A DNA stretch of 57,289 bases, taken from the NCBI GenBank assembly GCA_003599175.1, contig QZIY01000013.1, forward strand, positions 1 to 57,289, given 5' to 3'. This DNA is from Candidatus Parcubacteria bacterium. Its GTDB lineage: Bacteria > Patescibacteriota > Minisyncoccia > Phycocordibacterales > UBA2100. Positions 350 to 28,394 of this stretch are shown piece after piece. Both the position numbers and the translations under genes were made by a program. The notes beneath the pieces were generated by a model. It ran no database searches. It was given only the letters and a program-made list of their open reading frames with translations, and was not told the origin of the DNA. Each line of letters opens with the position of its first letter. The stretch's first letter is position 1.

Positions 350-1724
<1,375 letters not shown>

Positions 1725-3246: not shown

Positions 3247-3248
3247 AA

Positions 3249-3329
3249 TGCCGGAGGAGGGACTCGAACCCTCACGAGTTGCCTCAATCGATTTTGAGTC
3301 GATCGCGTATACCATTCCGCCACTCCGGC
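3249..3329 (-). tRNA. tRNA-Leu (anticodon CAA), class II with long variable arm
   Basis: 81-nt cloverleaf on the minus strand: acceptor GCCGGAG/CTCCGGC, anticodon stem ATCGA/TCGAT with loop CTCAAAA, variable arm GAG-GCAA-CTC, T arm GAGGG-TTCGAGT-CCCTC, discriminator A. Confidence 0.85.
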
Positions 3330-3379
3330 AATAATGGCTAGTGTACGAGTTTTGCGACGAAAAACAAATATATGCAACA

Positions 3380-10321: not shown

Positions 10322-10567
10322 ATGAGTGCAAATACTTTCCATCTCGTCATTGCATCTGTCGGCGACACCAAATTCGACGCCGCAGCGGAAAGCGCGACGC
10401 TCCCGGGTGTCGACGGCATCATGACTATCCTTCCTCACCACGAACCATTCGTGACGATTCTCAAAAAGGGGAAGGTGAGCGTGAAAGCAAGCGGGGAACA
10501 CAAAGAATTTGATATCGAAGGCGGGGTGCTTGAGTGCAGTGGAAATCGCGCCGTTGTGCTTCTCTAG
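10322..10567 (+). CDS. atpC: F-type ATP synthase epsilon subunit, beta-sandwich domain only (81 aa)
   Basis: Matches the epsilon N-domain pattern (LPGVDGIMTILPHHEPFVTILKKGKV...GGVLEC...VVLL). No C-terminal helical hairpin. Confidence 0.85.
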   Translation: MSANTFHLVIASVGDTKFDAAAESATLPGVDGIMTILPHHEPFVTILKKGKVSVKASGEHKEFDIEGGVLECSGNRAVVLL

Positions 10568-10584
10568 TACGTTACAATAATCGC

Positions 10585-12735
10585 ATGCGCATCATGCGGC
10601 TCTTAGCCGCTCTGGCGGTTTTTTCTATACCGTTTTCTGCTTTTGCAGCCGCTGTTCCTACCGGCGGATCGCCATTTTCGCAGGTGAATCCGTTTTCATT
10701 TATTACTGATTCCTCGCATGCTCCCATAAGTGCTACGATCACTCCTTCTGCGCAAGTCGCCGCAACAGAAGCGACCCAACAAGCAACAAACGTAGGCACG
10801 AGCGACATTTGTTATGACGAAGCGGTTTCTATTAAAGATGGGAAGCAAGTGGCGACCCCATCCAAGGGAAAAAATTTTGATGAGTGCAAAAAACAGAAGA
10901 TTACGAAAGCAGATTGTTCCAACAAAACAAAAGCAGCCCTCGTCGGTAAGACGACCTACACGGTACTTGGCTCTGATAAACCAACGACGATTAGCCGTTG
11001 CGAGAAACAGCCGACTTCCAGCGCGTCAAAATGCGTTGCGATCGGAGACAGTCTTGCACTTGGTGCCGTGAAAGCAGGTTGCAACAGTGGCGGTAGTGTT
11101 TCGAGCAGCGGGTGTGATGTTGCGAAAATGGGACCTTCACTTGATCGGCTTGCATGCGGAAGCCGCAACCCGCAAGGGGTTTTGGATGCTATTAAAAATG
11201 CCAGTCCGGAACAATTGAAAGACGCGACAATTGTGCTTTCTCCGGGATGTTCAAACGGTGCGGCTATGTGTAAAGCGTGCGCCAATGACTCTTCCTGCAT
11301 CATTTCGCAGCAATTGAAGGAGCTTGAAAATAAGGGAGTTGATCTCGCAAACGTAAAAGTGATGGGTGTTTCTGAAACGCACGGCACCGTCAACACGGGA
11401 TACCTTGATGGTGTCAATGGTGGGGTAGGGCAAATAGTTAAAGACACTGGTGCCGAATTCCTCGGGCCCCTTCAGAACGTTGCAGGAGACGGCGTGCATG
11501 CGAATAATTATGGCTGGGTTCTCAACGAGATTGGACCTCCAACAGTTGCTATGCAAAACGGCGATTTCGGGAGCCCATTTACTGAGGGTGCCTCGGTGCA
11601 AACGGCAACCGGACCGGATGCTTCAGGCGTGGCTCAAAACTTGGCGCCGATGTGCGATAGTCTCGGTGGTTGCGGTTCAGCCGCATGTAATGTGCCAAAC
11701 CCAAGTCTGACATGTCGCACGAACAATCCGGGCGCTCTCACTTATGCGCCGTGGCAGGCCAAATACGGCGGTGTCCCATGTGGTATGGACAACAACACAA
11801 CTTGTTTCCCCACTATGGAACAGGGAATTGCCGCTCACGGTGGACTTCTCGTTGGTCCCAAATATTACGGATCTGGTGAGGGCACGATCGGTGACGCTGC
11901 AACGAGGTATTCAACGGCGAATCAATCCCAATATGCATCTTTTGTTTCCAACGCCACTGGTATCGGCGTGAACCAACCCGTGGATCCTTCGAACCCTCAA
12001 CAGCTTGGCAGCATTATGATGGCGCAATCGAGATTTGAGAATGGAAGGGGTGTGATATATACTCCCGAACAATTGGAAGCCGGTCTCGCGCTTATGTACA
12101 GCTCACAAACCACGCCTGTTGGATCAAATATCGTTCCGCTCGGCGGTGTTTCGAGCGGATTGGTGGGCAGCACTGTATCTACTCCCGCATCCTCGGGCAC
12201 TCTGACTGGTGAGTGGTCCGCGAGACAGAGCAGCACGAATGTTGTGACAGCTGAACCATATACACCGCCGACTGTGGTTAAGCCGGACTCTGAGACGAAA
12301 GAATATGTCGTTACGTACAAACCATACGAAAGCTCAAATGGTTGGGGTGGGATGAACTCGATGATGATGGGCAACTCTCTCGGCAGTTCGCTCGGCGGAG
12401 GCCTTTTTGGGTCTTCGTGGTCACAACCTTCGTACTCTAATCAAGGGCAATATCGAAATCCGCCTCCGCCACCGGCGAGCGTTTCGATCACGGCAGCACC
12501 TTCAACGGTCAAAAAAGGTGAGCAGATTGCAGTCAATTGGACATCCGAAGCGACGCTTCTCAATCCGCCATGTCGCGTCACCCAAAACGGCACCATTATT
12601 TCAGAATCTAATGCGGGTAGTCGTACCGTCACGACAAGCAGCTCCACGCCATCCACGCTCACGTTCCTCCTGCAGTGCAAAGCGGCGCGCGATGGGCAGA
12701 CTATCCAGCAGCAGGCAGCGGTCAGCGTGCAATAA
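10585..12735 (+). CDS. large secreted Cys-rich protein with GDSL/SGNH-like motif, Pro-rich linker and Ig-like C-terminus
   Basis: Signal peptide MRIMRLLAALAVFSIPFSAFAAAV. Motifs AIGDSLALG, TNNPGALTYAPW, PPPPPA linker. Function unknown. Confidence 0.7.
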   Translation: MRIMRLLAALAVFSIPFSAFAAAVPTGGSPFSQVNPFSFITDSSHAPISATITPSAQVAATEATQQATNVGTSDICYDEAVSIKDGKQVATPSKGKNFDECKKQKITKADCSNKTKAALVGKTTYTVLGSDKPTTISRCEKQPTSSASKCVAIGDSLALGAVKAGCNSGGSVSSSGCDVAKMGPSLDRLACGSRNPQGVLDAIKNASPEQLKDATIVLSPGCSNGAAMCKACANDSSCIISQQLKELENKGVDLANVKVMGVSETHGTVNTGYLDGVNGGVGQIVKDTGAEFLGPLQNVAGDGVHANNYGWVLNEIGPPTVAMQNGDFGSPFTEGASVQTATGPDASGVAQNLAPMCDSLGGCGSAACNVPNPSLTCRTNNPGALTYAPWQAKYGGVPCGMDNNTTCFPTMEQGIAAHGGLLVGPKYYGSGEGTIGDAATRYSTANQSQYASFVSNATGIGVNQPVDPSNPQQLGSIMMAQSRFENGRGVIYTPEQLEAGLALMYSSQTTPVGSNIVPLGGVSSGLVGSTVSTPASSGTLTGEWSARQSSTNVVTAEPYTPPTVVKPDSETKEYVVTYKPYESSNGWGGMNSMMMGNSLGSSLGGGLFGSSWSQPSYSNQGQYRNPPPPPASVSITAAPSTVKKGEQIAVNWTSEATLLNPPCRVTQNGTIISESNAGSRTVTTSSSTPSTLTFLLQCKAARDGQTIQQQAAVSVQ

Positions 12736-13904: not shown

Positions 13905-13943
13905 CCTTGCCTTTTTCGTGAAAGAATGCTAATATGGTGCATT

Positions 13944-14822
13944 ATGGCTCGGAAATTCAGTGTATTCGATCAAGTTGCAAAACTGCGCGAACGCTACTAT
14001 CGGGCGTTGCCGGGCAAAGAGTCGCTTATCAAAGTCATTAATGAAGCGGAGATTCCCGAACACGTATACAATTCCAATGCTATTGAAAACAGCACGTTGT
14101 CGCTTGAGGAAACTGAAAAAATTCTTCTTCAAATCGATCTCGATCGTTTTGTGAGCGAGCGCGAACTCTTCGAGGCAAAAAACCTCGCGCGTGTAATGGA
14201 TTATATTGATACAAAAGCGAAAGACGCGGAATTGTCGTTGTCACAGATCCTCTTTTTACATAAAATGCTCATTTCAAATATTCGCGACGAAATCGCGGGG
14301 CGGTTTCGCGCGGAAGGCGAGTGGGTGCGCGTGGGGACCCATATCGGGGCGGATCCGAATGATATTGATCGCTTGCTGACTGATATGCTTATCGAATACC
14401 ACGCCACTAAGGATGCACATATCGTTTCGCGGATTGCAAAATTGCATCTTTCATTCGAATATATCCATCCGTTTTGCGATGGCAATGGCCGTATTGGACG
14501 TGCTGTAAACAACTATGAGCTTATTCGTGAAGGATATGTTCCGATAAACATTGCATTCGCACATCGCGCACGCTACTACGAAGCATTCCGAGAACACGAA
14601 CAGCGCGGGAGCGTGCACATCATGGAAGAAATTATCGGACGCGCGCTCACGGAAAGCTACCACAGACGACTCGCATATATGGAAGGAAAACACGTCATCT
14701 CTCTTCCGGAATACGCGAAAGCTCATAAGCAGAGCTTGTCGAATGTAATCAACAAAGCGCATCGCCAGACGATTCCCGCATTTCGTGAAAAAGGGGAATG
14801 GAAGATAGCTGCCGATGCATAA
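13944..14822 (+). CDS. fic: Fic-domain protein (AMPylase-type), class II with N-terminal inhibitory motif
   Basis: Fic motif HPFCDGNGRIGR. Auto-inhibitory (S/T)xxxE(G/N) present as SNAIEN near the N-terminus. Confidence 0.9.
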   Translation: MARKFSVFDQVAKLRERYYRALPGKESLIKVINEAEIPEHVYNSNAIENSTLSLEETEKILLQIDLDRFVSERELFEAKNLARVMDYIDTKAKDAELSLSQILFLHKMLISNIRDEIAGRFRAEGEWVRVGTHIGADPNDIDRLLTDMLIEYHATKDAHIVSRIAKLHLSFEYIHPFCDGNGRIGRAVNNYELIREGYVPINIAFAHRARYYEAFREHEQRGSVHIMEEIIGRALTESYHRRLAYMEGKHVISLPEYAKAHKQSLSNVINKAHRQTIPAFREKGEWKIAADA

Positions 14823-14836
14823 TTGAAAAAATCTTT

Positions 14837-15940
14837 ATGGCTTCGATACAAATCGGACTTGTGGGGCTCCCGAATGTGGGGAAATCCACGCTTTTTAATG
14901 CGCTGACGCGCAAGGGGGTTTTGATTGCCAATTACCCGTTTGCCACGATCGATCCGTCGGTCGGCGTCGTGGCCGTACCGGATCACCGCCTGGATGCACT
15001 CACCAAGATGAGCAGCTCCGCGAAGCGTGTGCCTGCAATTGTCGAATTCGTCGACATCGCCGGGCTCGTCAAAGGTGCTTCGGAAGGAGAGGGACTGGGT
15101 AATCAATTCCTCTCACATATTCGCGAAGTCGATGCGATTCTTGAAGTCGTCCGCATTTTCGAAGACGAGGATGTGCATCACGTCGCAGGTAGTGTAGATC
15201 CTCGCTATGACGCAGAAGTGATCGACCTCGAATTGATCCAATCGGATTTGCAGAGCGCGCAGAAGCGCCTGGAGCGACTTGAGCGCGATGCGCGGGGAGG
15301 AGACAAGGATATTATTGCGGAGCGAGATGTGCTTAGAAAAATCGTCCCCGTGCTTGAGCAAAACAAACCAGCCCGCACCGTGAGTCTCTCCGAAGAAGAA
15401 AAGAAAATTTCACGCACTTTGCATCTCCTCACCATGAAGCCGGTCCTCTACGCGCTCAATAGGAAGAGTGGCGCGCTCAACATCGATGCGGAAGCAGGGG
15501 AGCGGTGGCGACAGCTCCAGCAATACTTCGAAGATCAGGGTGCGCAGTATGTGTTTGTCGACGCGGGCGTTGAGAACGAGCTGGCCGATGTAGGAGACGA
15601 CGAACGCGCGGATTTCCGCCGCGAGCTGGGCGTATCCGAAGACGGACTCGATGCACTGATTCGCGCGAGCTACCGACTTCTCGATCTGATTTCATTTTTC
15701 ACGACTGGTCCGACAGAATCACGGGCATGGACGATAAAGCGCGGCTCTACGGCGCCCGAAGCCGGTGCAGCCATTCACACCGATTTCCGCGACAAATTCA
15801 TCCGCGCAGAAGTCGTTGTCTGGGACAAACTGCTTGAGGCCGGCAGCTGGGGCAAGGCGCGCGAAAAAGCGACGCTCCGCACTGAGGGTAAGGAATACAT
15901 CGTCCAGGATGGCGATGTCATAGAGTTTTTGCACAGCTAA
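14837..15940 (+). CDS. ychF: ribosome-binding ATPase YchF
   Basis: MASIQIGLVGLPNVGKSTLFNALT, plus C-terminal TGPTESRAWTIKRGSTAPEAGAAIHTDF. Confidence 0.95.
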   Translation: MASIQIGLVGLPNVGKSTLFNALTRKGVLIANYPFATIDPSVGVVAVPDHRLDALTKMSSSAKRVPAIVEFVDIAGLVKGASEGEGLGNQFLSHIREVDAILEVVRIFEDEDVHHVAGSVDPRYDAEVIDLELIQSDLQSAQKRLERLERDARGGDKDIIAERDVLRKIVPVLEQNKPARTVSLSEEEKKISRTLHLLTMKPVLYALNRKSGALNIDAEAGERWRQLQQYFEDQGAQYVFVDAGVENELADVGDDERADFRRELGVSEDGLDALIRASYRLLDLISFFTTGPTESRAWTIKRGSTAPEAGAAIHTDFRDKFIRAEVVVWDKLLEAGSWGKAREKATLRTEGKEYIVQDGDVIEFLHS

Positions 15941-17211: not shown

Positions 17212-20200
17212 ATGAAGCAGTACGATCATACAAAGATCGAAAAAAAGTGGCAGAAAGCTTGGGCGGATGCGGAACAGTATAAGACTCCCGATCAGGTAAA
17301 AGGAAAAGATAATTTCTACCTCCTCGTCGAATTCCCGTACCCATCGGGCAATCTCCACGTAGGACACTGGTACGCTTTTGCGGTGCCCGATATGCTCGCG
17401 CGCTTGCACCGGATGAACGGGAAAAATGTGATGTATCCGATCGGCTTCGATGCTTTTGGCCTACCGGCAGAAAACGCAGCGATCAAAAATAAACTCAATC
17501 CGCGCACATGGACCGAGCAGAATATCGCGCACATGAAAAATCAGATTGCGTCGATGGGTACATCTTTCGACCTCTCGCGCATGGTTTCCACCATCGACCC
17601 TGCGTACTACAAATGGACACAGTGGCAGTTCCTCCAGTTCTTCAAAAAAGGATTGGCGTATCAGAAAGACACGCCGGTCAATTGGTGCCCCAATGACAAG
17701 ACCGTCTTGGCCAACGAGCAGGTGGTGACCCGTTCGACAAGCTCAGGGCAAGTGGCAACATGCGAACGCTGTGGCCACGAAGTGGTGCAAAAGCAAATGC
17801 TCCAGTGGAACATCAAGATCACCGACTATGCCGATCGGCTCGTCGATGATCTCGACCCCCTGGATTGGCCGAATGAAATCAAAGAATCCCAGCGCAATTG
17901 GATCGGCCGCTCGGAAGGTGCGGAGATCGATTTCCCGCTTGAAATTGGCGACAACAAAAAATACAAGTATGTGATTTTGCATGGCTTCCAGAGCAGCCCC
18001 GATCGTCCACGTTGGCTGTGGCTCAAATCAGAACTCGAAAAATCAGGGCACGAAGTCGTTATGCCTTCGCTTCCGAATCCTGATGACCCGAGCGAACAGG
18101 AGTGGGTTGAAACAGCCATCAATGCCACGACATATGATGAAAACACGGTACTGGTTGGACATAGTCTTGGCGCTGTCACCGCCCTTAAGGTCGTAGAGCG
18201 ACTCAAGAAACCAATTTTCCGTCTTGTCACGGTCGGTGGATTCGCGAACCGCGAATTTAAAGATAAGAAACGTCCGTTTGAGGAAACGTGGAAATGGGAA
18301 TTCGACGGAGAAAAGATTCGCTCAAAAACTAAAGCAATAACCGTTTTACATGATCCCAAAGATCACGCGATTTCAGATGCGCAAGCCAAAAAACTTGCCG
18401 ATTTACTTGGTGTTGCGGTAACCACAGGCACCTCAACAAAGTCGCATTTTGCAGGCGATAAGGAACCAGATGTGTTGATGTGGCTACGCCCGACGATTCG
18501 TGTCTTTACGACGCGCCCTGACACCCTCTTCGGCGCCACCTATCTCGTCCTTGCTCCTGAACATCCGTGGGTCGCGCTCGCGCTTCAGCACAAGACCGTA
18601 CTGAAGAACAACGACGAAGTGCAGAAGTACGTCGATAAGGCTAATAAGAAGACTGATCTGGAGAGGCAGGAGAGCAAGGAGAAAACAGGCGTGAAGCTCG
18701 AGGGAATCGAAGCGATCAATCCGGCGAGTGGAGAAAAAATCCCGCTCTTCGTGGCCGACTACGTACTTAGTCACTATGGCACCGGCGCGATTATGGCCGT
18801 GCCCGCGCACGACGAGCGCGACTTTGAATTTGCGCAAAAATTCGATTTGCCAATTCCGCAAGTCGTTGCTCCCGTTATTCACGTGACAAAGGGCGGGGAC
18901 GCGGTACGAGAAGGCGAGCCAATGAAGAAGCGCGATGCGGTGATGGCAATAGTGAAGCATTGGGAGAAGGATGAATACCTATGTATCGAATGGAAGGAGT
19001 TTGATGAGATTCGCACCTTTATCTCAGGAGGTATTGAGGAGGGCGAAGATGTTGTTGAGGCAGGGAAGCGAGAGATTGCGGAAGAATCGGGTTACAAGAA
19101 CGCAAAGTTCATCCGGAGCGTAGGACAGGTGCAATTTGTCGAGTTCTACCACCAGGCGAAGAAGGGGAACGTTCGAGCCAAAATGCACTACCTCTATTTT
19201 GAGTTGGAAAATGGAGAGCAAGAACCGCTTTCGGCGGAGGAAGATGCAAAGCACTCAATCGTGTGGAAGAAGCGCGACGAAGTCAGATCATTTCTTACCA
19301 TCAACGAAATCGGTCTCATTTGGGACCAGCTCGAACATGGCAATAGGCCCTACGTGGGTGCTGGAGAACTCATCAATTCGGGTGAATTTGATGGTCTTTC
19401 TATTGAGGGAGCGAAAAAGAAAATGACAGCCGCGTTTGGACGGGAAAAGAAGACCTATCGATTGCGAGATTGGATCGTGTCGCGACAGCGCTATTGGGGT
19501 GTGCCGATCCCTATTGTGCACTGCGATAATTGCGGCCCTGTGGCCGTGCCAGATGATCAGCTCCCTGTCAGGTTGCCGGATGTGGAGGATTATCTGCCGA
19601 GCGGGGAAGGGAAGTCACCGCTTGCGAAAGTCGATTCATTCGTACATACCACATGCCCGAAATGCGGCGGGGAAGCGAAGCGGGAGACAGACACACTCGA
19701 TACATTCGTCGATTCATCCTGGTACTTCCTCCGCTATACCGATCCGCATAACAGTGAACAGTTTGCAGAGAACAGTAAACAGAAGAATTGGATGCCGATC
19801 GATTTATATAGCGGCGGCGCAGAACACACGACGATGCACGTCCTCTACAGCCGTTTCTGGCACAAGGCGCTTTTCGATCTCGGCCTCGTCGCCGATGCGG
19901 AGCCGTATACGCGCCGCATGAATCGCAGCATCATTCTTGGTCCTGATGGTCAGAAAATGAGTAAATCCCGTGGCAACGTGATCGATCCTGATGCGGTCGT
20001 CGCACAGCTTGGCGCCGATACGGTGCGCATGTATTTGGCATTTATTGGGCCGTACAACGAAGTGGGGAGCTATCCGTGGAATCCCGATGGGGTGGTGGGC
20101 GTCCGCCGCTTTTTGGAGCGCTTATGGAAGGCGCAGCAATATGTGCAAAAAGAGGAAGTGGCTTCGCTTCAGAATGTGCTCCACAAGACGATCAAAAAAG

Positions 20201-20622
20201 TGGGCGAGGATGCGACACAGATGAAATTCAACACCGCAATCGCGCAGCTCATGGTATTCCTCAATGCGCTGGAGAAAGAGAAAAAGATCGGAGAGAGTCA
20301 ATGGAAAACGCTCCTTATGCTCGTCGCTCCTTTTGCGCCGCATATAGCAGAAGAGCTCTGGAGCGAACTGGGCGACCAGACTTCGGTGCATGCACAGAGC
20401 TGGCCGGAATTTGATCCGAAGCTGATGGTTGATGACGAGAAAGAGGTGGCGATTCAGATCGACGGCAAGACGCGCGGCACGATCGTGCTTCCTACCGCTG
20501 TATCGAAAGATGAAATAGAAAAACAAGCGCGCCTCAAGATTGAAGTGCGGCTCAAGGGCGTAAAGGTGGCACGGGTCATCGTCGTCCCTGGCCGCCTCAT
20601 CAATTTCGTGACTACCCGATAA
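17212..20622 (+). CDS. leuS: leucyl-tRNA synthetase, 1136 aa, with two inserted hydrolase domains
   Basis: HIGH-type PYPSGNLHVGH, editing-domain TTRPDT and GTGAIMAVPAHDERD, KMSKS present. About 300 aa longer than typical bacterial LeuRS. Confidence 0.95.
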   Translation: MKQYDHTKIEKKWQKAWADAEQYKTPDQVKGKDNFYLLVEFPYPSGNLHVGHWYAFAVPDMLARLHRMNGKNVMYPIGFDAFGLPAENAAIKNKLNPRTWTEQNIAHMKNQIASMGTSFDLSRMVSTIDPAYYKWTQWQFLQFFKKGLAYQKDTPVNWCPNDKTVLANEQVVTRSTSSGQVATCERCGHEVVQKQMLQWNIKITDYADRLVDDLDPLDWPNEIKESQRNWIGRSEGAEIDFPLEIGDNKKYKYVILHGFQSSPDRPRWLWLKSELEKSGHEVVMPSLPNPDDPSEQEWVETAINATTYDENTVLVGHSLGAVTALKVVERLKKPIFRLVTVGGFANREFKDKKRPFEETWKWEFDGEKIRSKTKAITVLHDPKDHAISDAQAKKLADLLGVAVTTGTSTKSHFAGDKEPDVLMWLRPTIRVFTTRPDTLFGATYLVLAPEHPWVALALQHKTVLKNNDEVQKYVDKANKKTDLERQESKEKTGVKLEGIEAINPASGEKIPLFVADYVLSHYGTGAIMAVPAHDERDFEFAQKFDLPIPQVVAPVIHVTKGGDAVREGEPMKKRDAVMAIVKHWEKDEYLCIEWKEFDEIRTFISGGIEEGEDVVEAGKREIAEESGYKNAKFIRSVGQVQFVEFYHQAKKGNVRAKMHYLYFELENGEQEPLSAEEDAKHSIVWKKRDEVRSFLTINEIGLIWDQLEHGNRPYVGAGELINSGEFDGLSIEGAKKKMTAAFGREKKTYRLRDWIVSRQRYWGVPIPIVHCDNCGPVAVPDDQLPVRLPDVEDYLPSGEGKSPLAKVDSFVHTTCPKCGGEAKRETDTLDTFVDSSWYFLRYTDPHNSEQFAENSKQKNWMPIDLYSGGAEHTTMHVLYSRFWHKALFDLGLVADAEPYTRRMNRSIILGPDGQKMSKSRGNVIDPDAVVAQLGADTVRMYLAFIGPYNEVGSYPWNPDGVVGVRRFLERLWKAQQYVQKEEVASLQNVLHKTIKKVGEDATQMKFNTAIAQLMVFLNALEKEKKIGESQWKTLLMLVAPFAPHIAEELWSELGDQTSVHAQSWPEFDPKLMVDDEKEVAIQIDGKTRGTIVLPTAVSKDEIEKQARLKIEVRLKGVKVARVIVVPGRLINFVTTR
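17962..18489 (+). other. in-frame RBBP9/YdeN-type alpha/beta serine-hydrolase domain inside leuS (residues ~251-426)
   Basis: YVILHGFQSSPDRPRWLWL...PSLPNPDDPSEQEW...VLVGHSLGAV...VLHDPKDHAI...KSHF, bounded by LeuRS landmarks NWIGRSEGAEIDF and VFTTRPDT. Confidence 0.75.
18883..19356 (+). other. in-frame Nudix hydrolase domain inside leuS (residues ~558-715)
   Basis: Perfect Nudix box GX5EX7REUXEEXGU = GGIEEGEDVVEAGKREIAEESGY (19027-19095), bounded by LeuRS landmarks AHDERDFEFAQKFDLPI and LINSGEFDGL. Confidence 0.8.
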
Positions 20623-20669: not shown

Positions 20670-22277
20670 TTACTTTGCGGCGGAAATACTGACACCAGCG
20701 TCAGTATCTTTGACTGTATAACCTTTCTTCTCAATCTGTTCTCGCAGCTCGTCGGCTTTCGTCCATTCTTTACTTGCCCGCGCCGCCTCCCGCTCGTCGA
20801 CAAGCGCCTTCACATCTGCTGGTAATGCAGCAACGCTGATTTCTTTGCCCGATAAGCGCTGCGCCAGTTCATCCGGTTCGTGGAGATTGAGACCGAGCAC
20901 CTTGTCCATTTCGATTATTCCTGCCAAGAGATCTCCGGCGGAGAGCGACGTATCTTTCGTCATATCCCACAATACCGCGAGTGCGCCCGGCGTATCGAGA
21001 TCGTCGTTGATGTGCGAGCGGAATTTTTTCATCCATGCGGCGGGTGGGGTGCCGGGATTATTGTTGGATGCTGCGACTGCTTTCCCCGCAATCGAAAGAA
21101 GATTCGCAAGCGCATTTTGCGATGCGGTGAGTGCCTCCCAGCTAAAATTCGACGGTGTACGGTAGTGCGCGCCAAGGAAGAGGTAGCGGAGCGCCAGGGG
21201 GTGAAATCCTTTCTCGATGATTTCCGAAAGATAGACGACATTGCCCTGCGACTTGGCGATCTTGCCACCGTCGATCTGGATATGCTGACGATGGAGCCAA
21301 AAGCGTGAGAAGGGGCGCTTGCCGGTCGCGCATTCAGACTGCGCGATTTCGTTGTTGTGGTGGATCGGGATGTGCTCGATGCCGCCCGTGTGGATATCGA
21401 TTTTCTCCCCGAGACAGACGCGCGCCATCGCAGAGCATTCGATGTGCCAGCCGGGATACCCCTTGCCCCACGGGGAGTCCCACCCCTGAAGTCGCCCAGA
21501 AATCTCATCTGCATCGTTGCGGGTCCCTTGCGCCGCCCTCGTTGTATTCTTTGATACGCCTCGTGCGCCGCCTTTCCCGCGCCTCGCAGCTGAAGCTTTC
21601 TGAGCTACTTCAGCAACACGGCTGAATTTCCATAGTGCAAAATCCGCCGCGTTGCGTTTTCCTTCCACCACGGCGACGCGTGCACCTTCTTTCTGCCCCT
21701 CGCGATCAATACCGCCGAGCTGTCCGTAGCGAGGGAACTTTTCGGTATCAAAATAGACGCCATCAGCGATTTTGTATGCATACCCTTTTTCCTCGAGTGT
21801 TTTGATCATCGCGATTTGTGCAGGGATGTGATCACTTGCGCGCGGGAATTGGATGCGAGATGTATCGATATTGAGTTTGCCAATGTCCTCAATAAAAATG
21901 CCCGCGTACTTGTCGGCGAGGAGGCGCATATTTTCGAGTGTGAGCTTCATCTTTTCGCGCTTGAGACCGAGTGTCATTTTGTCCTCGCCCGCGTCTGCAT
22001 CCGACGAAAGGTGCCCGACATCGGTGATATTGATGACCTGCTTCACTTCGTAGCCGTTTTGTTCGAGCGTACGGCGCAGAATATCGGTGAAGACGAACAT
22101 CGAGAGATTGCCGATGTGCTGCACGCCATAGACCGTGGGTCCGCAGTTGTACATGCGGACCCTTTTTGCGGGTGCGGGCAGCTGAAAGGCCTCTTTTTGC
22201 TTGGTGAGTGTGTTGTAGAAGGAGAGGGAAGAGACGTGGCCAAAGGGGAGCTTTTGAAAGAGTTTCTGGAACCACAT
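20670..22277 (-). CDS. cysS: cysteinyl-tRNA synthetase with a basic low-complexity insertion
   Basis: MYNCGPTVYGVQHIGN (HIGH), WDSPWGKGYPGWHIECSAM, KIAKSQGN (KMSKS-like). 535 aa. Confidence 0.95.
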   Translation of the reverse strand: MWFQKLFQKLPFGHVSSLSFYNTLTKQKEAFQLPAPAKRVRMYNCGPTVYGVQHIGNLSMFVFTDILRRTLEQNGYEVKQVINITDVGHLSSDADAGEDKMTLGLKREKMKLTLENMRLLADKYAGIFIEDIGKLNIDTSRIQFPRASDHIPAQIAMIKTLEEKGYAYKIADGVYFDTEKFPRYGQLGGIDREGQKEGARVAVVEGKRNAADFALWKFSRVAEVAQKASAARRGKGGARGVSKNTTRAAQGTRNDADEISGRLQGWDSPWGKGYPGWHIECSAMARVCLGEKIDIHTGGIEHIPIHHNNEIAQSECATGKRPFSRFWLHRQHIQIDGGKIAKSQGNVVYLSEIIEKGFHPLALRYLFLGAHYRTPSNFSWEALTASQNALANLLSIAGKAVAASNNNPGTPPAAWMKKFRSHINDDLDTPGALAVLWDMTKDTSLSAGDLLAGIIEMDKVLGLNLHEPDELAQRLSGKEISVAALPADVKALVDEREAARASKEWTKADELREQIEKKGYTVKDTDAGVSISAAK

Positions 22278-27394: not shown

Positions 27395-27425
27395 TGCGAT
27401 CGAAAACGCCTCCTTGTGGGGTCTA

Positions 27426-28394
27426 ATGAAGAGCGTAGAATGGCGGGGCATGGCGATTACAATAGAACAGCTGGATAATAGATATCGAGAGAAAAATGCC
27501 ACGATCATTCTTGGGGAAAATATTTTATTGAAATTTGTTCCGGAAAAATCAGTATTTGATCGAAATGACTCTCTTCGAGAATTAATCAGTACGCAAAATT
27601 TTCTTCTGGGTGAAGGTCCTAAAAACATTGGCCAAATGGTCAATCTGTCGAACAGGATCAAAAAAAGACTTGAGCATCATATTCAGTCCCAGGAACTCGC
27701 AGGTTCCTTTTTAAAGAAAGACAGATCAGGCAAGCCTGATATCGGTTTTTTTGAAAGACATATTAAACCCGACTTGATCGCGGGGGTAAAAAAACTTGAA
27801 GACTTGAGCCAGGCCGTGGATAAGTTAGAGGATTCTTTCCCACGTCGTCTTGGTCGCTCGGCGCCACATTATTTTTGTGATAACTGTATCGCCTATATCG
27901 GAACAGATATAGCACCGAGCAAATGCACGATTTGTGGAAGTGCTATAAATATTCATAGCGCTGTTCGCAATTTGCGATACTTAGAGCCAGATGTCTTTGA
28001 TTATCTCGGCGGGAAATGGTTTGAGGATTACATCGGAAAGATCTTCGAGTCCAATGGATGGAAGGTTTGGAAGCATGGATCAGTTATGGGGACTTCAGGT
28101 GAAAAGCATCCAATCGACGTATTAGCTGCAAACAATAAGACTGCAAACGTTCTAGTTGCGGAATGCAAAATCTCCCAGGATAGTTTTGCTGACAAAGACA
28201 TGCTCGCTTTCAAAGCGAGATGGCACGAAATTAGTGCGGCTCACGGTTTTTTCATCGTGCTAGGTAATGATGAGAGAGGTGAACTACAGACAAAAAGAAT
28301 ATTTGCTCGGACACCGGGCCTCTGCTTTCTGAGTGGCATGGGCGGCATGACTGACGCGCAAATCTACGAACAAATAACAAGTGAAATAGCTTAA
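27426..28394 (+). CDS. Zn-ribbon + PD-(D/E)xK (Mrr-cat-like) restriction-endonuclease-fold protein
   Basis: CDNC...CTIC ribbon, then WFEDYIGKIFESNGWKV...HPIDVLAANNKTANVLVAECK (D...ExK). The ORF opens at TTG 27414, with ATGs at 27426 and 27450. AT-rich relative to flanks. Confidence 0.65.
   Translation: MKSVEWRGMAITIEQLDNRYREKNATIILGENILLKFVPEKSVFDRNDSLRELISTQNFLLGEGPKNIGQMVNLSNRIKKRLEHHIQSQELAGSFLKKDRSGKPDIGFFERHIKPDLIAGVKKLEDLSQAVDKLEDSFPRRLGRSAPHYFCDNCIAYIGTDIAPSKCTICGSAINIHSAVRNLRYLEPDVFDYLGGKWFEDYIGKIFESNGWKVWKHGSVMGTSGEKHPIDVLAANNKTANVLVAECKISQDSFADKDMLAFKARWHEISAAHGFFIVLGNDERGELQTKRIFARTPGLCFLSGMGGMTDAQIYEQITSEIA

What the first reader, a model, noticed from the sequence alone, without database searches (positions are those of the whole stretch)
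17962..18489. LeuRS carries a complete RBBP9/YdeN-type alpha/beta serine hydrolase inserted just before the CP1 editing domain
This LeuRS is 1136 aa, against roughly 800-880 aa for typical bacterial enzymes (established knowledge). The LeuRS landmarks are intact on both sides: ...NWIGRSEGAEIDFPLEIGDNKK | insert | [26 protein letters not shown]. In E. coli and T. thermophilus about 10 residues separate these landmarks; here about 176 aa intervene. The insert reads YKYVILHGFQSSPDRPRWLWLKSELEKSGHEVVMPSLPNPDDPSEQEW...VLVGHSLGAV...VLHDPKDHAI...KSHF. That gives an HG turn, a GHSLG nucleophile elbow, an acidic residue and a terminal His, in the order of the ~180-aa Ser_hydrolase fold. There is no stop, no frameshift and no intein-like boundary. 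An esterase grafted beside the tRNA-deacylating CP1 domain suggests an extra proofreading or aminoacyl-ester hydrolysing activity. I know of no described aaRS with this architecture, but I could not search.
Basis: partly seen in the sequence, partly recalled or inferred. Interest (0 to 1): 0.85.

Follow-up and report, generated by a model that had tools for sequence, protein, structure and literature searches.

The report
LeuRS carrying two extra hydrolase domains
A leucyl-tRNA synthetase from an uncultured ultra-small (Parcubacteria/CPR) bacterium carries two complete, apparently active extra enzymes, a serine hydrolase and a Nudix hydrolase, nested inside its proofreading domain; the design is shared by over a hundred relatives, no paper found describes it, and its function is untested.

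Summary
ORF 17212-20622 (+) encodes a 1136-aa bacterial-type LeuRS. Residues 251-426 are a complete YdeN/RBBP9-type serine hydrolase (PF06821, 46.9 bits; YdeN 1uxo E 6e-14).

Both sit inside CP1, not before it. The leucine-specific domain is absent.

The architecture is not an assembly artefact. About 100 clusters carry both inserts and about 30 species-level Patescibacteria genomes carry the hydrolase insert. The catalytic residues of both inserts are 95-100% conserved. So are the LeuRS HIGH, KMSKS and CP1 editing motifs.

The "extra proofreading" reading is only partly supported. The same hydrolase clade also occurs free-standing, at two other LeuRS loops, and in ValRS, an Fmt-like protein, Kae1, SecA and UvrA. 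Close relatives lack one insert or the other.

My best reading (about 0.4) is that both are dispensable accessory clean-up hydrolases. The serine hydrolase would cleave alpha-aminoacyl esters or amides, as RBBP9 does. The Nudix would cleave Ap4A-like by-products.

No paper found describes this architecture, and databases only auto-annotate it. I class it as a new variant of a known kind, interest about 0.7.

The parts
17212..20622 (+). leuS: complete 1136-aa bacterial-type leucyl-tRNA synthetase (stop codon included)
   Evidence: ORF. TIGR00396 946.7 bits. Foldseek TM 0.78-0.83 (normalised to the target) to solved bacterial LeuRS. Identical to public protein P0014.
17212..17943 (+). aa 1-244: N-terminal half of the catalytic Rossmann body, plus the first beta-strand of CP1. 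HIGH motif HVGH is at aa 49-52 (17356-17367).
   Evidence: Aligns to Tt LeuRS 1-237. PF00133 hit at 12-231. HVGH is 99-100% conserved.
17944..18495 (+). Insert 1 (aa 245-428): YdeN/RBBP9-type Ser-Asp-His alpha/beta hydrolase in the first beta-hairpin of CP1. The domain core is aa 251-426, which is 17962-18489.
   Evidence: PF06821 46.9 bits. YdeN 1uxo E 5.9e-14. pLDDT 92-98 with a six-strand alpha/beta pattern in the model. Replaces Tt238-242.
17980..17985 (+). H257-G258, the oxyanion-hole 'HG' turn after strand beta1
   Evidence: H257 100% and G258 96% in the 100 two-insert homologues. Shared with ordinary YdeN-like proteins.
18157..18171 (+). G316-H-S318-L-G320, the nucleophile elbow; S318 is the predicted nucleophile
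   Evidence: S318 100%, G320 100%, G316 98%. Aligns with the GHS elbow of YdeN and RBBP9.
18352..18363 (+). D381-P-K-D384, the acidic turn. D384 aligns with the catalytic Asp of RBBP9 (D138) and of YdeN.
   Evidence: D381 is D in 114 of 115 and E in 1. Position 384 is D in 99 and E in 16, so always acidic. Alignment.
18445..18447 (+). H412, the catalytic His
   Evidence: 100% conserved.
18256..18306 (+). aa 349-365, the 'lid' segment F-K-D-x-x-R-P-F...W-x-F-D. It is 3-4 residues longer and more basic than in ordinary free-standing YdeN-like proteins.
   Evidence: F349 in 102 of 115, D351 in 100, R354 in 107, D365 in 107. Specific to the embedded clade.
18463..18495 (+). aa 418-428, EPDVLMWLRPT: the C-terminal helix of the hydrolase, joined by 2-3 residues to CP1 strand IRVFTTR. 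A short, conserved junction.
   Evidence: E418 100%, P427 93%. Helix 419-425 then strand 428-433 in the model. The same junction occurs in P0001 and P0002 from other assemblies.
18496..18867 (+). aa 429-552: core of the CP1 editing domain, with T-rich motif TTRPDT (aa 433-438, 18508-18525) and AHDERD (aa 532-537, 18805-18822)
   Evidence: PF13603 185 bits, profile positions 22-144. Aligns to Tt243-362. Motifs 98-100% conserved.
18868..19341 (+). Insert 2 (aa 553-710): Nudix pyrophosphohydrolase domain nested in a CP1 loop. Nudix box G606...Y628 is at 19027-19095.
   Evidence: PF00293 38.5 bits. Replaces Tt363-373. G606 100%, E612 95%, R620 98%, E621, E624, E625 and G627 100%. Domain model pLDDT 94.4. 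Foldseek finds Nudix folds, closest to ApnA-hydrolase and RppH types.
19342..19953 (+). aa 711-914: C-terminal part of CP1 plus the second half of the catalytic body, including the HCxxCG zinc knuckle. 'Site 3', used by the hydrolase in other lineages, lies after aa 775.
   Evidence: Aligns to Tt374-579. Site 3 mapped.
19954..19968 (+). KMSKS loop (aa 915-919). The leucine-specific domain that precedes it in T. thermophilus (Tt580-636) is absent.
   Evidence: KMSKS 100% conserved. Query 910 to 915 corresponds to Tt579 to 637.
19969..20619 (+). aa 920-1136: anticodon-binding helical domain and C-terminal tRNA-binding domain
   Evidence: PF08264 hit at 988-1096. Aligns to Tt637-875.

Best explanation
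SHOWN. This is the housekeeping bacterial-type LeuRS of a Parcubacteria/Paceibacteria (Kaiserbacteria-related) CPR bacterium. Its CP1 editing domain, itself an insertion in the Rossmann fold, hosts two further complete enzyme domains. One is a YdeN/RBBP9-family Ser-Asp-His alpha/beta hydrolase in the turn of the first CP1 hairpin (aa 245-428). The other is a Nudix pyrophosphohydrolase in the loop about 18 residues after the editing-site Asp motif (aa 553-710). The catalytic residues of both inserts are conserved across more than 100 homologues. So are the LeuRS aminoacylation and CP1 editing motifs. The hydrolase belongs to a distinct clade of its family. In CPR bacteria, and in one archaeal-type Kae1, that clade occurs free-standing or grafted in-frame into surface loops of large housekeeping enzymes. 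Among the hits listed the host is mostly LeuRS (three different loops, in varying order with Nudix), but also ValRS, an Fmt-like protein, Kae1/TsaD, SecA and UvrA.

INFERRED (about 0.4). Both inserts are active accessory 'clean-up' hydrolases that ride on LeuRS. They are not new parts of the canonical CP1 editing mechanism. The serine hydrolase would take an alpha-aminoacyl group with a free amine onto S318 and release it by hydrolysis, as RBBP9 does with aminoacyl amides and an aminoacyl nucleoside ester. Candidate substrates are released or non-cognate aminoacyl-adenylates, aminoacyl-nucleotides, aminoacyl-tRNA ends or short peptides. The Nudix domain would cleave dinucleoside polyphosphates such as Ap4A, or related NDP-X by-products of adenylate chemistry. 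Both are useful but dispensable, since close relatives lack one or the other.
For: Architecture:
- ORF, Pfam, NCBIfam and PDB mapping.
- Full-length model with mean pLDDT 90.2, pTM 0.76 and both inserts at 92-98.
- LeuRS fold confirmed by Foldseek.

Reality and breadth:
- 100 clusters with both inserts, 15 with the hydrolase only, 5 with the Nudix only.
- About 30 GTDB species representatives, all Patescibacteria, including two closed chromosomes.
- Conserved synteny YchF, DUF5671, leuS, cysS in relatives with different insert content.

Active enzymes under selection:
- S318, H412 and H257 are 100% conserved, D381 99%, and position 384 is always acidic.
- The Nudix box is 95-100% conserved.
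- This holds although the inserts are only 42-47% identical pairwise, against 64-80% for the core.
- The LeuRS HIGH, KMSKS, T-rich and HDERD motifs are intact.

Family chemistry:
- RBBP9 is a serine aminopeptidase that needs a free alpha-amine and carries a single amino acid on its Ser (PMC8866121).
- RBBP9 is cited as a valacyclovir-activating enzyme, valacyclovir being a valyl ester of a nucleoside analogue (Shenoy 2020; seen only as a citation).
- ML-005, a YdeN-type protein, is a short-chain esterase (PMC6119806).

Nudix subtype:
- Low-rmsd structural neighbours are ApnA hydrolases and RppH: 3i7u, 4mpo, MutT1, Rv2985.
- The best PDB sequence hit is the Aquifex Ap4A hydrolase.

Hosts:
- Four of six host families handle tRNA, aminoacyl-tRNA or acyl-adenylates: LeuRS, ValRS, Fmt-like, Kae1.
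- Nudix and hydrolase recur together in LeuRS in at least four arrangements.

Accessory and dispensable:
- Presence or absence is clean among relatives with up to 84% core identity.
- Free-standing members of the same clade exist.
Against: - No substrate has been tested. All functional statements rest on analogy with distant relatives: about 25-30% identity to RBBP9 and YdeN, about 20% for the Nudix.
- SecA and UvrA hosts have no link to aminoacyl chemistry.
- The host census comes from the 150 best hits to a LeuRS-derived query, so LeuRS is over-sampled.
- The free-standing hydrolase-Nudix fusions belong to the other branch of the family, and their Nudix halves are not specifically related to the LeuRS Nudix.
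- In genomes whose LeuRS lacks one insert, no compensating gene lies beside leuS.
- The residue aligned with RBBP9's amine anchor E108 appears to be a conserved Arg (R354). The alignment there is uncertain, but a different substrate is possible.
- Structural neighbours do not fix Nudix specificity. All hits are near E 1e-8 and MutT and ADP-ribose enzymes are also listed.
Confidence: 0.4

Rival explanations
1. Second proofreading site acting in cis. The hydrolase sits beside CP1 so that the aminoacylated CCA end of tRNALeu, or an adenylate expelled from the synthetic site, reaches S318. It is deacylated there, widening or backing up CP1 editing. The Nudix would remove the nucleotide by-products.
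For: - The insert is anchored 5-10 residues before the T-rich editing motif, through a short and highly conserved junction (E418 100%; 2-3 linker residues).
- The family acts on alpha-aminoacyl groups with a free amine.
- LeuRS is by far the commonest host among the hits listed, and the module was retained at three LeuRS loops.
- ValRS and an Fmt-like protein, which also bind aminoacyl-tRNA ends, are hosts.
Against: - The CP1 editing motifs are fully conserved, so nothing suggests a need for replacement.
- LeuRS site 3 and the ValRS site lie in the catalytic body, not the editing domain.
- SecA, UvrA and free-standing forms belong to the same clade.
- The insert is missing from relatives with 84% core identity, with no visible change elsewhere.
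Confidence: 0.2
2. Pure piggy-backing. The hydrolase and the Nudix are general housekeeping enzymes, for example an esterase or aminopeptidase for scavenging and a nucleotide sanitiser. In tiny CPR genomes they became fused into permissive loops of large, constitutively expressed essential proteins. LeuRS is only a carrier and there is no chemical link to aminoacylation.
For: - The hosts are functionally diverse: SecA, UvrA, Kae1, an Fmt-like protein, ValRS and LeuRS.
- Free-standing members are interleaved in the same clade.
- Three different LeuRS loops are used.
- Another unrelated domain, an IS200-like Y1 transposase domain, occupies site 1 in P0202, so that loop simply tolerates inserts.
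- Gain and loss are frequent.
- The inserts evolve faster than the host.
Against: - LeuRS predominates, and Nudix recurs with the hydrolase within LeuRS in several arrangements.
- Four of six host families are tRNA or adenylate enzymes.
- The junction is conserved and rigid, not a floppy linker.
- The embedded clade has its own conserved features, a basic lid and the EPxxL helix, which suggest a specialised substrate.
Confidence: 0.25
3. Built-in immunity. The hydrolase destroys aminoacyl-adenylate-mimicking antibiotics that target LeuRS (microcin C, agrocin 84 or ascamycin-like compounds), analogous to MccF. It would cleave the aminoacyl-nucleotide bond at the target enzyme itself, and the Nudix would degrade the nucleotide moiety.
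For: - There are precedents for enzymatic detoxification of such compounds: MccF cleaves the aminoacyl-AMP carboxamide bond, MccE acetylates the alpha-amine, and HIT hydrolases also act, with Parcubacteria homologues tested (PMC7157772).
- NCBI curates an IleRS family with an embedded N-acetyltransferase domain (NF040702), listed.
- RBBP9-type enzymes need a free alpha-amine.
Against: - There is no homology to MccF (S66 peptidase), MccE or HIT proteins.
- SecA, UvrA and Kae1 hosts do not fit.
- No antibiotic cluster or transporter context surrounds leuS.
- No defence-system model matches convincingly.
Confidence: 0.08
4. Artefact or dead domain: a chimeric assembly, a pseudogene, or a catalytically inert structural spacer.
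For: The window is a single metagenome-assembled contig, and read mapping could not be done.
Against: - The same junctions occur in more than 100 independent clusters and about 30 species genomes, including closed chromosomes.
- The ORF is intact.
- The catalytic residues are 95-100% conserved although the inserts are only 42-47% identical pairwise.
- The folds are predicted with high confidence.
Confidence: 0.02

Closest known systems
Bacterial LeuRS with CP1 editing domain (T. thermophilus 1h3n/2bte, E. coli 4aq7/4arc)
   Same: Same enzyme family and fold: TM 0.78-0.83 (normalised to the target), about 30% identity. HIGH, KMSKS, T-rich and conserved-Asp editing motifs, zinc knuckles, and the anticodon-binding and C-terminal domains are all present.
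   Different: - About 184 and 158 extra residues form two additional catalytic domains nested in CP1 loops.
- The leucine-specific domain is absent.
- A 2026 survey of domain insertions found PF13603 to be exclusively an inserted module, never a host (PMC13114784). Here it is a host.
YdeN (B. subtilis, 1uxo) / RBBP9 (human, 2qs9) / ML-005: PF06821 Ser_hydrolase family
   Same: A minimal alpha/beta hydrolase of about 180 aa with HG turn, G-H-S-x-G elbow, Asp and His. Characterised members are an aminopeptidase needing a free alpha-amine (RBBP9) and a short-chain esterase (ML-005).
   Different: - It is embedded in-frame inside another enzyme instead of being a free-standing protein.
- It belongs to a separate clade with a longer, basic lid (F-K-D-x-x-R) and a conserved EPxxL C-terminal helix.
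- Its substrate is unknown.
Nudix ApnA hydrolases and RppH (Aquifex aq_158 3i7u, Chlamydia CT771 4mpo, M. tuberculosis Rv2985 9cxx, E. coli RppH)
   Same: Canonical Nudix box and fold. These are the lowest-rmsd structural neighbours (2.6-3.7 Å) and the best PDB sequence hit.
   Different: - Only about 20% identity.
- The domain is inserted in a CP1 loop.
- Specificity is not determinable from these matches. MutT-type and ADP-ribose enzymes are also listed.
IleRS with embedded N-acetyltransferase domain (NCBIfam NF040702 ileS_w_GNAT)
   Same: A class Ia aaRS that carries an extra catalytic domain and is recognised as a curated exception family. I saw the model name only.
   Different: - The extra domain is an acetyltransferase, not a hydrolase, and there is only one of it.
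- No corresponding NCBIfam model exists for this LeuRS architecture, and NCBI names for these proteins are inconsistent.
- I did not examine members of NF040702.
Free-standing or appended aa-tRNA editing hydrolases (CP1, INS/YbaK/ProX, AlaX, ThrRS N2, DTD). Named from established knowledge.
   Same: If the proofreading rival is right, the function would be analogous: hydrolysis of an aminoacyl ester on tRNA.
   Different: There is no sequence or fold relationship, and no such family was hit. As far as I know, none of the known editing domains uses an alpha/beta-hydrolase Ser-Asp-His triad.
MccF / MccE / MccH immunity enzymes against aminoacyl-nucleotide antibiotics
   Same: Enzymes that inactivate aminoacyl-adenylate mimics aimed at an aaRS.
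   Different: They belong to unrelated families, are encoded in antibiotic gene clusters, and are not fused to the target synthetase.

Membership tests
Bacterial leucyl-tRNA synthetase (TIGR00396 leuS_bact) | Whole-protein score above the curated equivalog cutoff | tested here: met
   946.7 bits against a cutoff of 548.4.
Bacterial leucyl-tRNA synthetase (TIGR00396 leuS_bact) | Class I signature motifs HIGH and KMSKS | tested here: met
   HVGH at aa 49-52 and KMSKS at aa 915-919, 99-100% conserved in 100 homologues.
Bacterial leucyl-tRNA synthetase (TIGR00396 leuS_bact) | CP1 editing domain with the T-rich motif and the conserved Asp | tested here: met
   PF13603 185 bits. TTRPDT at 433-438 and AHDERD at 532-537, 98-100% conserved.
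Bacterial leucyl-tRNA synthetase (TIGR00396 leuS_bact) | LeuRS three-dimensional fold | tested here: met
   Foldseek E 6e-78, TM (normalised to the target) 0.78-0.83 to 2bte, 5on2 and 4aq7.
Bacterial leucyl-tRNA synthetase (TIGR00396 leuS_bact) | Leucylation of tRNALeu, and being the only leuS in the genome | not testable with these tools
   Needs biochemistry and the whole genome. Conserved synteny with insert-variant orthologues suggests it is the housekeeping copy.
Ser_hydrolase PF06821 (YdeN/RBBP9 family) | Pfam score above the gathering threshold over most of the profile | tested here: met
   46.9 bits against 22, profile positions 1-154 of 172.
Ser_hydrolase PF06821 (YdeN/RBBP9 family) | Ser-Asp-His triad with a GxSxG elbow and HG oxyanion turn, in canonical order | tested here: met
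   H257-G258, G316-H-S318-L-G320, D381 and D384, H412. All 96-100% conserved, and aligned to YdeN and RBBP9.
Ser_hydrolase PF06821 (YdeN/RBBP9 family) | Significant similarity to solved family members | tested here: met
   1uxo E 5.9e-14; 2qs9 and 9fcr about 1e-8.
Ser_hydrolase PF06821 (YdeN/RBBP9 family) | Compact alpha/beta-hydrolase fold of about 180 aa | tested here: met
   The model shows alternating beta/alpha elements (strands 252-256, 281-283, 312-317, 335-341, 373-380, 403-405) at pLDDT 92-98. I did not fold-search the domain on its own.
Ser_hydrolase PF06821 (YdeN/RBBP9 family) | Hydrolytic activity, as esterase or aminopeptidase | not testable with these tools
   Needs enzyme assays with S318A as a control.
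NUDIX hydrolase PF00293 | Nudix box GX5EX7REUXEEXGU | tested here: met
   G606...E612...R620-E621...E624-E625-x-G627-Y628, 95-100% conserved.
NUDIX hydrolase PF00293 | Pfam gathering score and Nudix fold | tested here: met
   38.5 bits against 21.1. Model pLDDT 94.4. Foldseek probability 1.00 to many Nudix structures.
Nudix ApnA (diadenosine polyphosphate) hydrolase subfamily | Specific relationship to characterised Ap4A hydrolases, and the subfamily marker residues | tested here: inconclusive
   - The best PDB sequence hit is 3i7u at E 0.004.
- Low-rmsd neighbours are ApnA hydrolases and RppH, but MutT and ADP-ribose enzymes score similarly.
- An aromatic residue is always present 17-18 residues after the box. 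The marker rule is recalled from memory and was not verified.
Known aa-tRNA editing domain families (INS/YbaK, AlaX, DTD, ThrRS-N2) | Homology of the insert to any of them | tested here: not met
   No such Pfam or NCBIfam hit for aa 245-428 or aa 553-710.
Intein or other self-splicing or mobile insertion | Hint domain or splice-junction residues, homing endonuclease, flanking repeats | tested here: not met
   No Hint or LAGLIDADG hit. No repeats at the boundaries. No GC shift. The insert is conserved as part of the mature reading frame in more than 100 homologues.
Anti-phage defence systems (PADLOC) | Match to a defence protein model | tested here: not met
   Only a weak generic Nudix hit to candidate PDC-S07 (E 2e-4). 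Nothing for the hydrolase or the whole protein.

The most novel reading that the evidence does not exclude
The grafted Ser-Asp-His hydrolase, with the Nudix as partner, is a genuine additional quality-control site of the synthetase. It would be the first aaRS to use an alpha/beta-hydrolase triad to hydrolyse mis-made aminoacyl esters or adenylates in cis. In addition, this hydrolase clade would be a portable catalytic cassette that CPR bacteria repeatedly plug into enzymes handling aminoacyl-tRNA or adenylates: LeuRS at three loops, ValRS, Fmt and Kae1.
Probability: 0.2. Interest if true: 0.9.

Novelty: new variant of a known kind. Interest (0 to 1): 0.7.

Why it matters
Aminoacyl-tRNA synthetases are among the most conserved and best-studied enzymes, and their editing domains define how translational fidelity is understood. 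Here a bacterial LeuRS carries four predicted active sites on one chain: synthetic, CP1 editing, serine hydrolase and Nudix. The last two are nested inside an already inserted domain.

The architecture is conserved across a whole CPR lineage but modular: close relatives have one insert, the other, or both. That gives a natural experiment.

- **If the extra sites act on aminoacyl or adenylate by-products,** this would be a new way of organising translational quality control, or adenylate and Ap4A housekeeping, in organisms with minimal genomes.
- **If they do not,** it is a clear case of catalytic domains hopping in-frame between loops of essential proteins. That bears on how reduced genomes keep accessory enzymes expressed.

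Two practical consequences follow:

- It would give the poorly understood YdeN/RBBP9 family a testable physiological context.
- It explains why annotation pipelines misname these essential LeuRS genes as "NUDIX domain-containing protein" or "alpha/beta fold hydrolase", which can make leuS look absent from CPR genomes.

Tried and rejected
1. **Chimeric assembly or frameshift: rejected.** The ORF is intact and the same junctions occur in more than 100 clusters and about 30 genomes.
2. **Intein or recent mobile insertion: rejected.** There is no Hint domain, no flanking repeats and no GC shift.
3. **Dead or structural domain: rejected.** The catalytic residues are 95-100% conserved.
4. **The hydrolase compensates for a degenerate CP1: rejected.** The CP1 motifs are intact.
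5. **Free-standing hydrolase-Nudix fusions as proof of a functional pair tied to LeuRS: weakened.** Their Nudix halves share only box-level similarity with the LeuRS Nudix, and their hydrolase halves fall in the other branch of the family.
6. **Gene-neighbourhood compensation: not found.** In genomes whose LeuRS lacks one insert, the 257-aa ORF upstream of leuS in L083 is unrelated. A nearby 167-aa Nudix occurs in both the Nudix-only and the hydrolase-only genome.
7. **Another copy of either insert in the window: none**.
8. **Measuring the distance from S318 to the editing site or CCA path: not possible.** The model coordinates are not exposed to scripts, and Foldseek on the whole model returns only LeuRS hits.
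9. **Counting independent losses: uncertain.** Parsimony on an NJ tree gives about 5 hydrolase and about 10 Nudix changes. But four of the five hydrolase-less forms share a homologous hairpin loop, so the count is unreliable.
10. **Defence-system membership: nothing meaningful**.
11. **Literature: no description of this architecture found.** Nine full-text searches covered LeuRS or aaRS with Nudix, CPR or Patescibacteria and domain insertion, plus YdeN and RBBP9. The Shenoy 2020 paper itself could not be read.
12. **Word-index search with the Nudix insert: only 3 hits.** The Nudix host range remains unknown.

Full report
**1. Observation.**

The window holds one uninterrupted ORF at 17212-20622 (+) encoding 1136 aa. 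It is a bacterial-type leucyl-tRNA synthetase: TIGR00396 scores 946.7 bits against a cutoff of 548. PF00133, PF13603 (CP1 editing) and PF08264 are all present. A full-length AlphaFold model (mean pLDDT 90.2, pTM 0.76) superposes on solved bacterial LeuRS structures with TM 0.78-0.83 normalised to the target.

On its own it matches PF06821 Ser_hydrolase at E 3.7e-12 (46.9 bits, gathering score 22) over profile positions 1-154 of 172. Its best solved relatives are B. subtilis YdeN (1uxo, E 5.9e-14) and human RBBP9 (about 1e-8). Aligned to T. thermophilus LeuRS, query 244 corresponds to Tt237 and query 429 to Tt243, so aa 245-428 replace a five-residue turn.

Base composition shows no anomaly. 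There is no Hint/intein hit and no repeat at the boundaries.

**2.

The extra length does not come from one insert. A second domain, NUDIX (PF00293, 38.5 bits, gathering score 21.1), fills aa 553-710 and replaces Tt363-373. The roughly 57-residue leucine-specific domain of T. thermophilus (Tt580-636) is absent.

Both inserts lie inside CP1, not before it:
- The PF13603 profile is matched only from position 22 onward after insert 1. In insert-free relatives it starts at position 1, about 20 residues earlier.
- Tt374-417, which follows insert 2, still belongs to the editing domain. That domain boundary is from my memory of the T. thermophilus structure papers.

So CP1, itself an insertion in the Rossmann fold, is host to two nested domains. 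A 2026 survey of 48,551 insertion events reported PF13603 as exclusively an inserted module with "zero instances of host function" (PMC13114784).

**3. It is real and lineage-wide.**

The identical protein is public: P0014, on a 57,289-bp contig from Candidatus Parcubacteria, named "NUDIX domain-containing protein". Among the 120 closest 90%-identity clusters, 100 have both inserts, 15 have only the hydrolase and 5 have only the Nudix. Each is a clean presence or absence.

A scan of GTDB species representatives found about 30 genomes with the site-1 hydrolase. All are Patescibacteria: Kaiserbacteria, Paceibacterota, Nomurabacteria, Uhrbacteria, Kerfeldbacteria and Magasanikbacteria, plus MAGs labelled Saccharibacteria. 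Two are closed chromosomes.

The neighbourhood YchF, DUF5671, leuS, cysS(-), CorA(-), S41 peptidase is the same in the window and in relatives whose LeuRS has only one insert. So this is the housekeeping leuS slot. A chimeric assembly is excluded.

**4. Both inserts look like active enzymes under selection.**

Conservation in the hydrolase-bearing homologues:

| Element | Residues and conservation |
|---|---|
| Hydrolase HG turn | H257 100%, G258 96% |
| Hydrolase elbow | G316 98%, S318 100%, G320 100% |
| Hydrolase acid | D381 is D in 114 of 115 and E in 1; position 384 is D in 99 and E in 16 |
| Hydrolase His | H412 100% |
| Nudix box | G606 100%, E612 95%, R620 98%, E621, E624, E625 and G627 100% |
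| LeuRS motifs | HVGH, KMSKS, TTRxDT and AHDERD about 99-100% |

D384 is the residue that aligns with the catalytic Asp of RBBP9 and YdeN.

This conservation holds although the inserts diverge faster than the host. Mean pairwise identity is 0.47 for the hydrolase and 0.42 for the Nudix insert, against 0.64-0.80 for the LeuRS segments. Because the LeuRS motifs are intact, the inserts add to canonical functions and do not replace them.

The C-terminal junction is short and conserved. Helix 419-425 (EPDVLMWL, E418 100%) is followed by only 2-3 residues before the CP1 strand IRVFTTR. That argues for a fixed attachment and against a floppy one.

**5. The hydrolase is a portable module.**

An exhaustive HMMER search of 1.84 billion representatives with the insert found 1594 relatives. 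Among the best 150, 87 are free-standing proteins of about 180 aa, 48 are embedded in LeuRS and 15 are other or longer proteins.

Within LeuRS the module occupies three different loops:

| Site | Position |
|---|---|
| 1 | First CP1 hairpin, as in this window |
| 2 | After the CP1 core |
| 3 | Directly after the HCxxCG zinc knuckle of the catalytic body |

It combines with Nudix in at least four arrangements:
- Hydrolase at site 1 with Nudix at site 2.
- Nudix and hydrolase both at site 1.
- Nudix at site 2 with hydrolase at site 3.
- Nudix inside CP1 with hydrolase at site 3.

Duplicated copies also occur.

Other hosts:

| Host | Protein | Details |
|---|---|---|
| ValRS | P0183 | Insert between Tt-ValRS 478 and 479, outside the editing domain |
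| Fmt-like formyltransferase | P0236 | Best match TIGR00460, below its cutoff |
| Archaeal-type Kae1 | P0159 | TIGR03722, above its cutoff |
| UvrA | P0177 | |
| SecA | P0162, P0009 | |

The SecA case is genuine. In L081 the gene is a single ORF of about 1240 codons once its four internal TGA codons are read as sense, so the host is a UGA-recoded CPR bacterium.

A rough NJ tree of 124 hydrolase domains separates ordinary free-standing YdeN-like proteins, which include five free-standing hydrolase-Nudix fusions, from a second clade. That clade holds every embedded copy plus some free-standing proteins of about 180 aa. Within it, host and site are not monophyletic.

The embedded clade has its own signature: a lid 3-4 residues longer and more basic (F349-K-D351-x-x-R354) and a conserved EPxxL C-terminal helix.

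Caveats: the tree has no support values. The census is also biased toward LeuRS, because the query came from LeuRS and only the top 150 hits are listed.

**6. The inserts are dispensable.**

On an NJ tree of the LeuRS core, Fitch parsimony infers both inserts at the root, with about 5 changes for the hydrolase and about 10 for the Nudix. The window protein's nearest core relative (P0025, 84% core identity) lacks the hydrolase and has an ordinary 11-residue hairpin.

Four of the five hydrolase-less forms share a homologous loop. So the number of independent events is uncertain.

No compensating hydrolase or Nudix gene sits beside leuS in the single-insert genomes.

**7. Mechanism.**

What is shown: there are four predicted catalytic centres on one chain, and the architecture is conserved but modular.

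What is inferred comes from family chemistry:
- RBBP9 is a serine aminopeptidase that requires a free alpha-amine and forms a single-amino-acid acyl-enzyme (PMC8866121).
- RBBP9 is cited as a valacyclovir-activating enzyme. Valacyclovir is a valyl ester of a nucleoside analogue. I saw this only as a citation and could not read the paper.
- A YdeN homologue, ML-005, is a short-chain esterase. YdeN lacks a hydrophobic lid, which suggests water-soluble esters or thioesters as substrates (PMC6119806).

Hydrolysis of an alpha-aminoacyl ester or amide is exactly the chemistry of aminoacyl-tRNA or aminoacyl-nucleotide cleavage.

The Nudix domain's lowest-rmsd neighbours are diadenosine-polyphosphate hydrolases and RppH (3i7u, 4mpo, MutT1, Rv2985). 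Its best PDB sequence hit is the Aquifex Ap4A hydrolase. It is established knowledge that aaRSs make Ap4A from aminoacyl-adenylate and ATP.

I therefore favour, at about 0.4, accessory clean-up hydrolases acting on aminoacyl and adenylate-derived by-products. They would be tethered to LeuRS but not integrated into CP1 editing.

Four findings weaken it:
- CP1 is intact.
- The site-3 and ValRS positions lie outside the editing domain.
- SecA, UvrA and free-standing forms belong to the same clade.
- Close relatives lack the insert.

Pure piggy-backing with no chemical link to aminoacylation is a serious rival (about 0.25). Built-in immunity against aminoacyl-adenylate mimics, analogous to MccF and MccE (PMC7157772), is a minor one (about 0.08).

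The decisive geometric test is the distance and orientation between S318 and the tRNA CCA path.

**8. Comparison with what is known, and novelty.**

- **As LeuRS:** all testable membership features are met.
- **As PF06821 and PF00293:** the sequence, motif and fold criteria are met. Activity is untestable here.
- **As other families:** it is not a member of any known editing-domain family, intein or defence system.

No solved LeuRS has such inserts. NCBIfam has no model for this architecture, although it curates an IleRS family with an embedded GNAT domain (NF040702, seen).

Public databases hold the sequences under inconsistent automatic names: "NUDIX domain-containing protein", "alpha/beta fold hydrolase", "class I tRNA ligase family protein" and "leucyl-tRNA synthetase/predicted esterase". 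Nine full-text literature searches found no description of it.

I classify it as a new variant of a known kind: an aaRS with two nested accessory catalytic domains. It also points to a portable hydrolase module in CPR bacteria, which no paper I found describes.

**9. Verdict.**

- **Observation:** confirmed.
- **Interpretation:** partly supported. The architecture is right, the second insert was missed, and the function is unproven and probably not a simple second editing site.
- **Interest:** 0.7. This would surprise aaRS specialists and can be tested directly with standard assays, but the function is unknown and the sequences are already public.

Noticed in passing
   Followed up: yes
window 19942-19953 (+), aa 911-914 of LeuRS: The leucine-specific domain of T. 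thermophilus LeuRS (Tt580-636, just before KMSKS) is absent. Only about 4 residues link the flanking segments.
   Followed up: partly
window 20673-22277 (-), CysRS: The adjacent CysRS is 535 aa, against 479-480 aa in syntenic relatives. It carries a basic, low-complexity insertion of about 42 aa (SRVAEVAQKASAARRGKGGARGVSKNTTRAAQGTRN...) inside the catalytic domain. The insertion coincides with a local GC rise to 0.58-0.61.
   Followed up: partly
P0202 (998-aa LeuRS from another organism), aa about 245-395: In this LeuRS the same site-1 hairpin holds an IS200-like HUH/Y1 transposase domain (PF01797, motif MPEHVHLLV) in-frame, and the hydrolase sits at site 3. The hairpin therefore accepts unrelated domains, possibly of mobile-element origin.
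   Followed up: partly
L081:3345-7025 (Logan DRR438495, 84-kb contig): SecA is called as five fragments, but it is one ORF of about 1240 codons if its four internal TGA codons are sense. So this is a UGA-recoded CPR bacterium. Its SecA carries the same hydrolase module in-frame in the scaffold/wing region.
   Followed up: yes
P0159 (508 aa), P0236 (545 aa), P0177 (1118 aa), P0183 (1260 aa): The same hydrolase clade is inserted in an archaeal-type Kae1 (TIGR03722, above its cutoff), an Fmt-like formyltransferase, UvrA and ValRS. The Kae1 host suggests the module also occurs in archaea, possibly DPANN. The organism was not identified.
   Followed up: partly
P0199, P0208, P0216, P0238, P0270 (318-369 aa): Free-standing two-domain Ser_hydrolase-NUDIX fusion proteins exist. 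They belong to the ordinary YdeN-like branch. Their Nudix halves are heterogeneous and not specifically related to the LeuRS Nudix.
   Followed up: partly
window 13926-14819 (+) and 14798-15937 (+): A Fic/DOC-domain protein lies directly upstream of the YchF GTPase gene and overlaps it by about 22 nt. It is absent from the syntenic loci L083 and L084.
   Followed up: no
window 10534-12732 (+) and 27414-28391 (+): Two long ORFs, 733 aa and 326 aa, have no Pfam match at E <= 1e-5.
   Followed up: no
window 350-421 (+) and 3248-3330 (-): tRNA-Trp(CCA) and tRNA-Leu(CAA) genes. The tRNA-Leu is the cognate substrate type of this LeuRS and looks ordinary to ARAGORN.
   Followed up: no
public annotation of P0014 and its homologues: These essential LeuRS genes are named inconsistently by pipelines: 'NUDIX domain-containing protein', 'alpha/beta fold hydrolase', 'class I tRNA ligase family protein' and 'hypothetical protein'. 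That could make leuS appear to be missing in metabolic reconstructions of CPR genomes.
   Followed up: no
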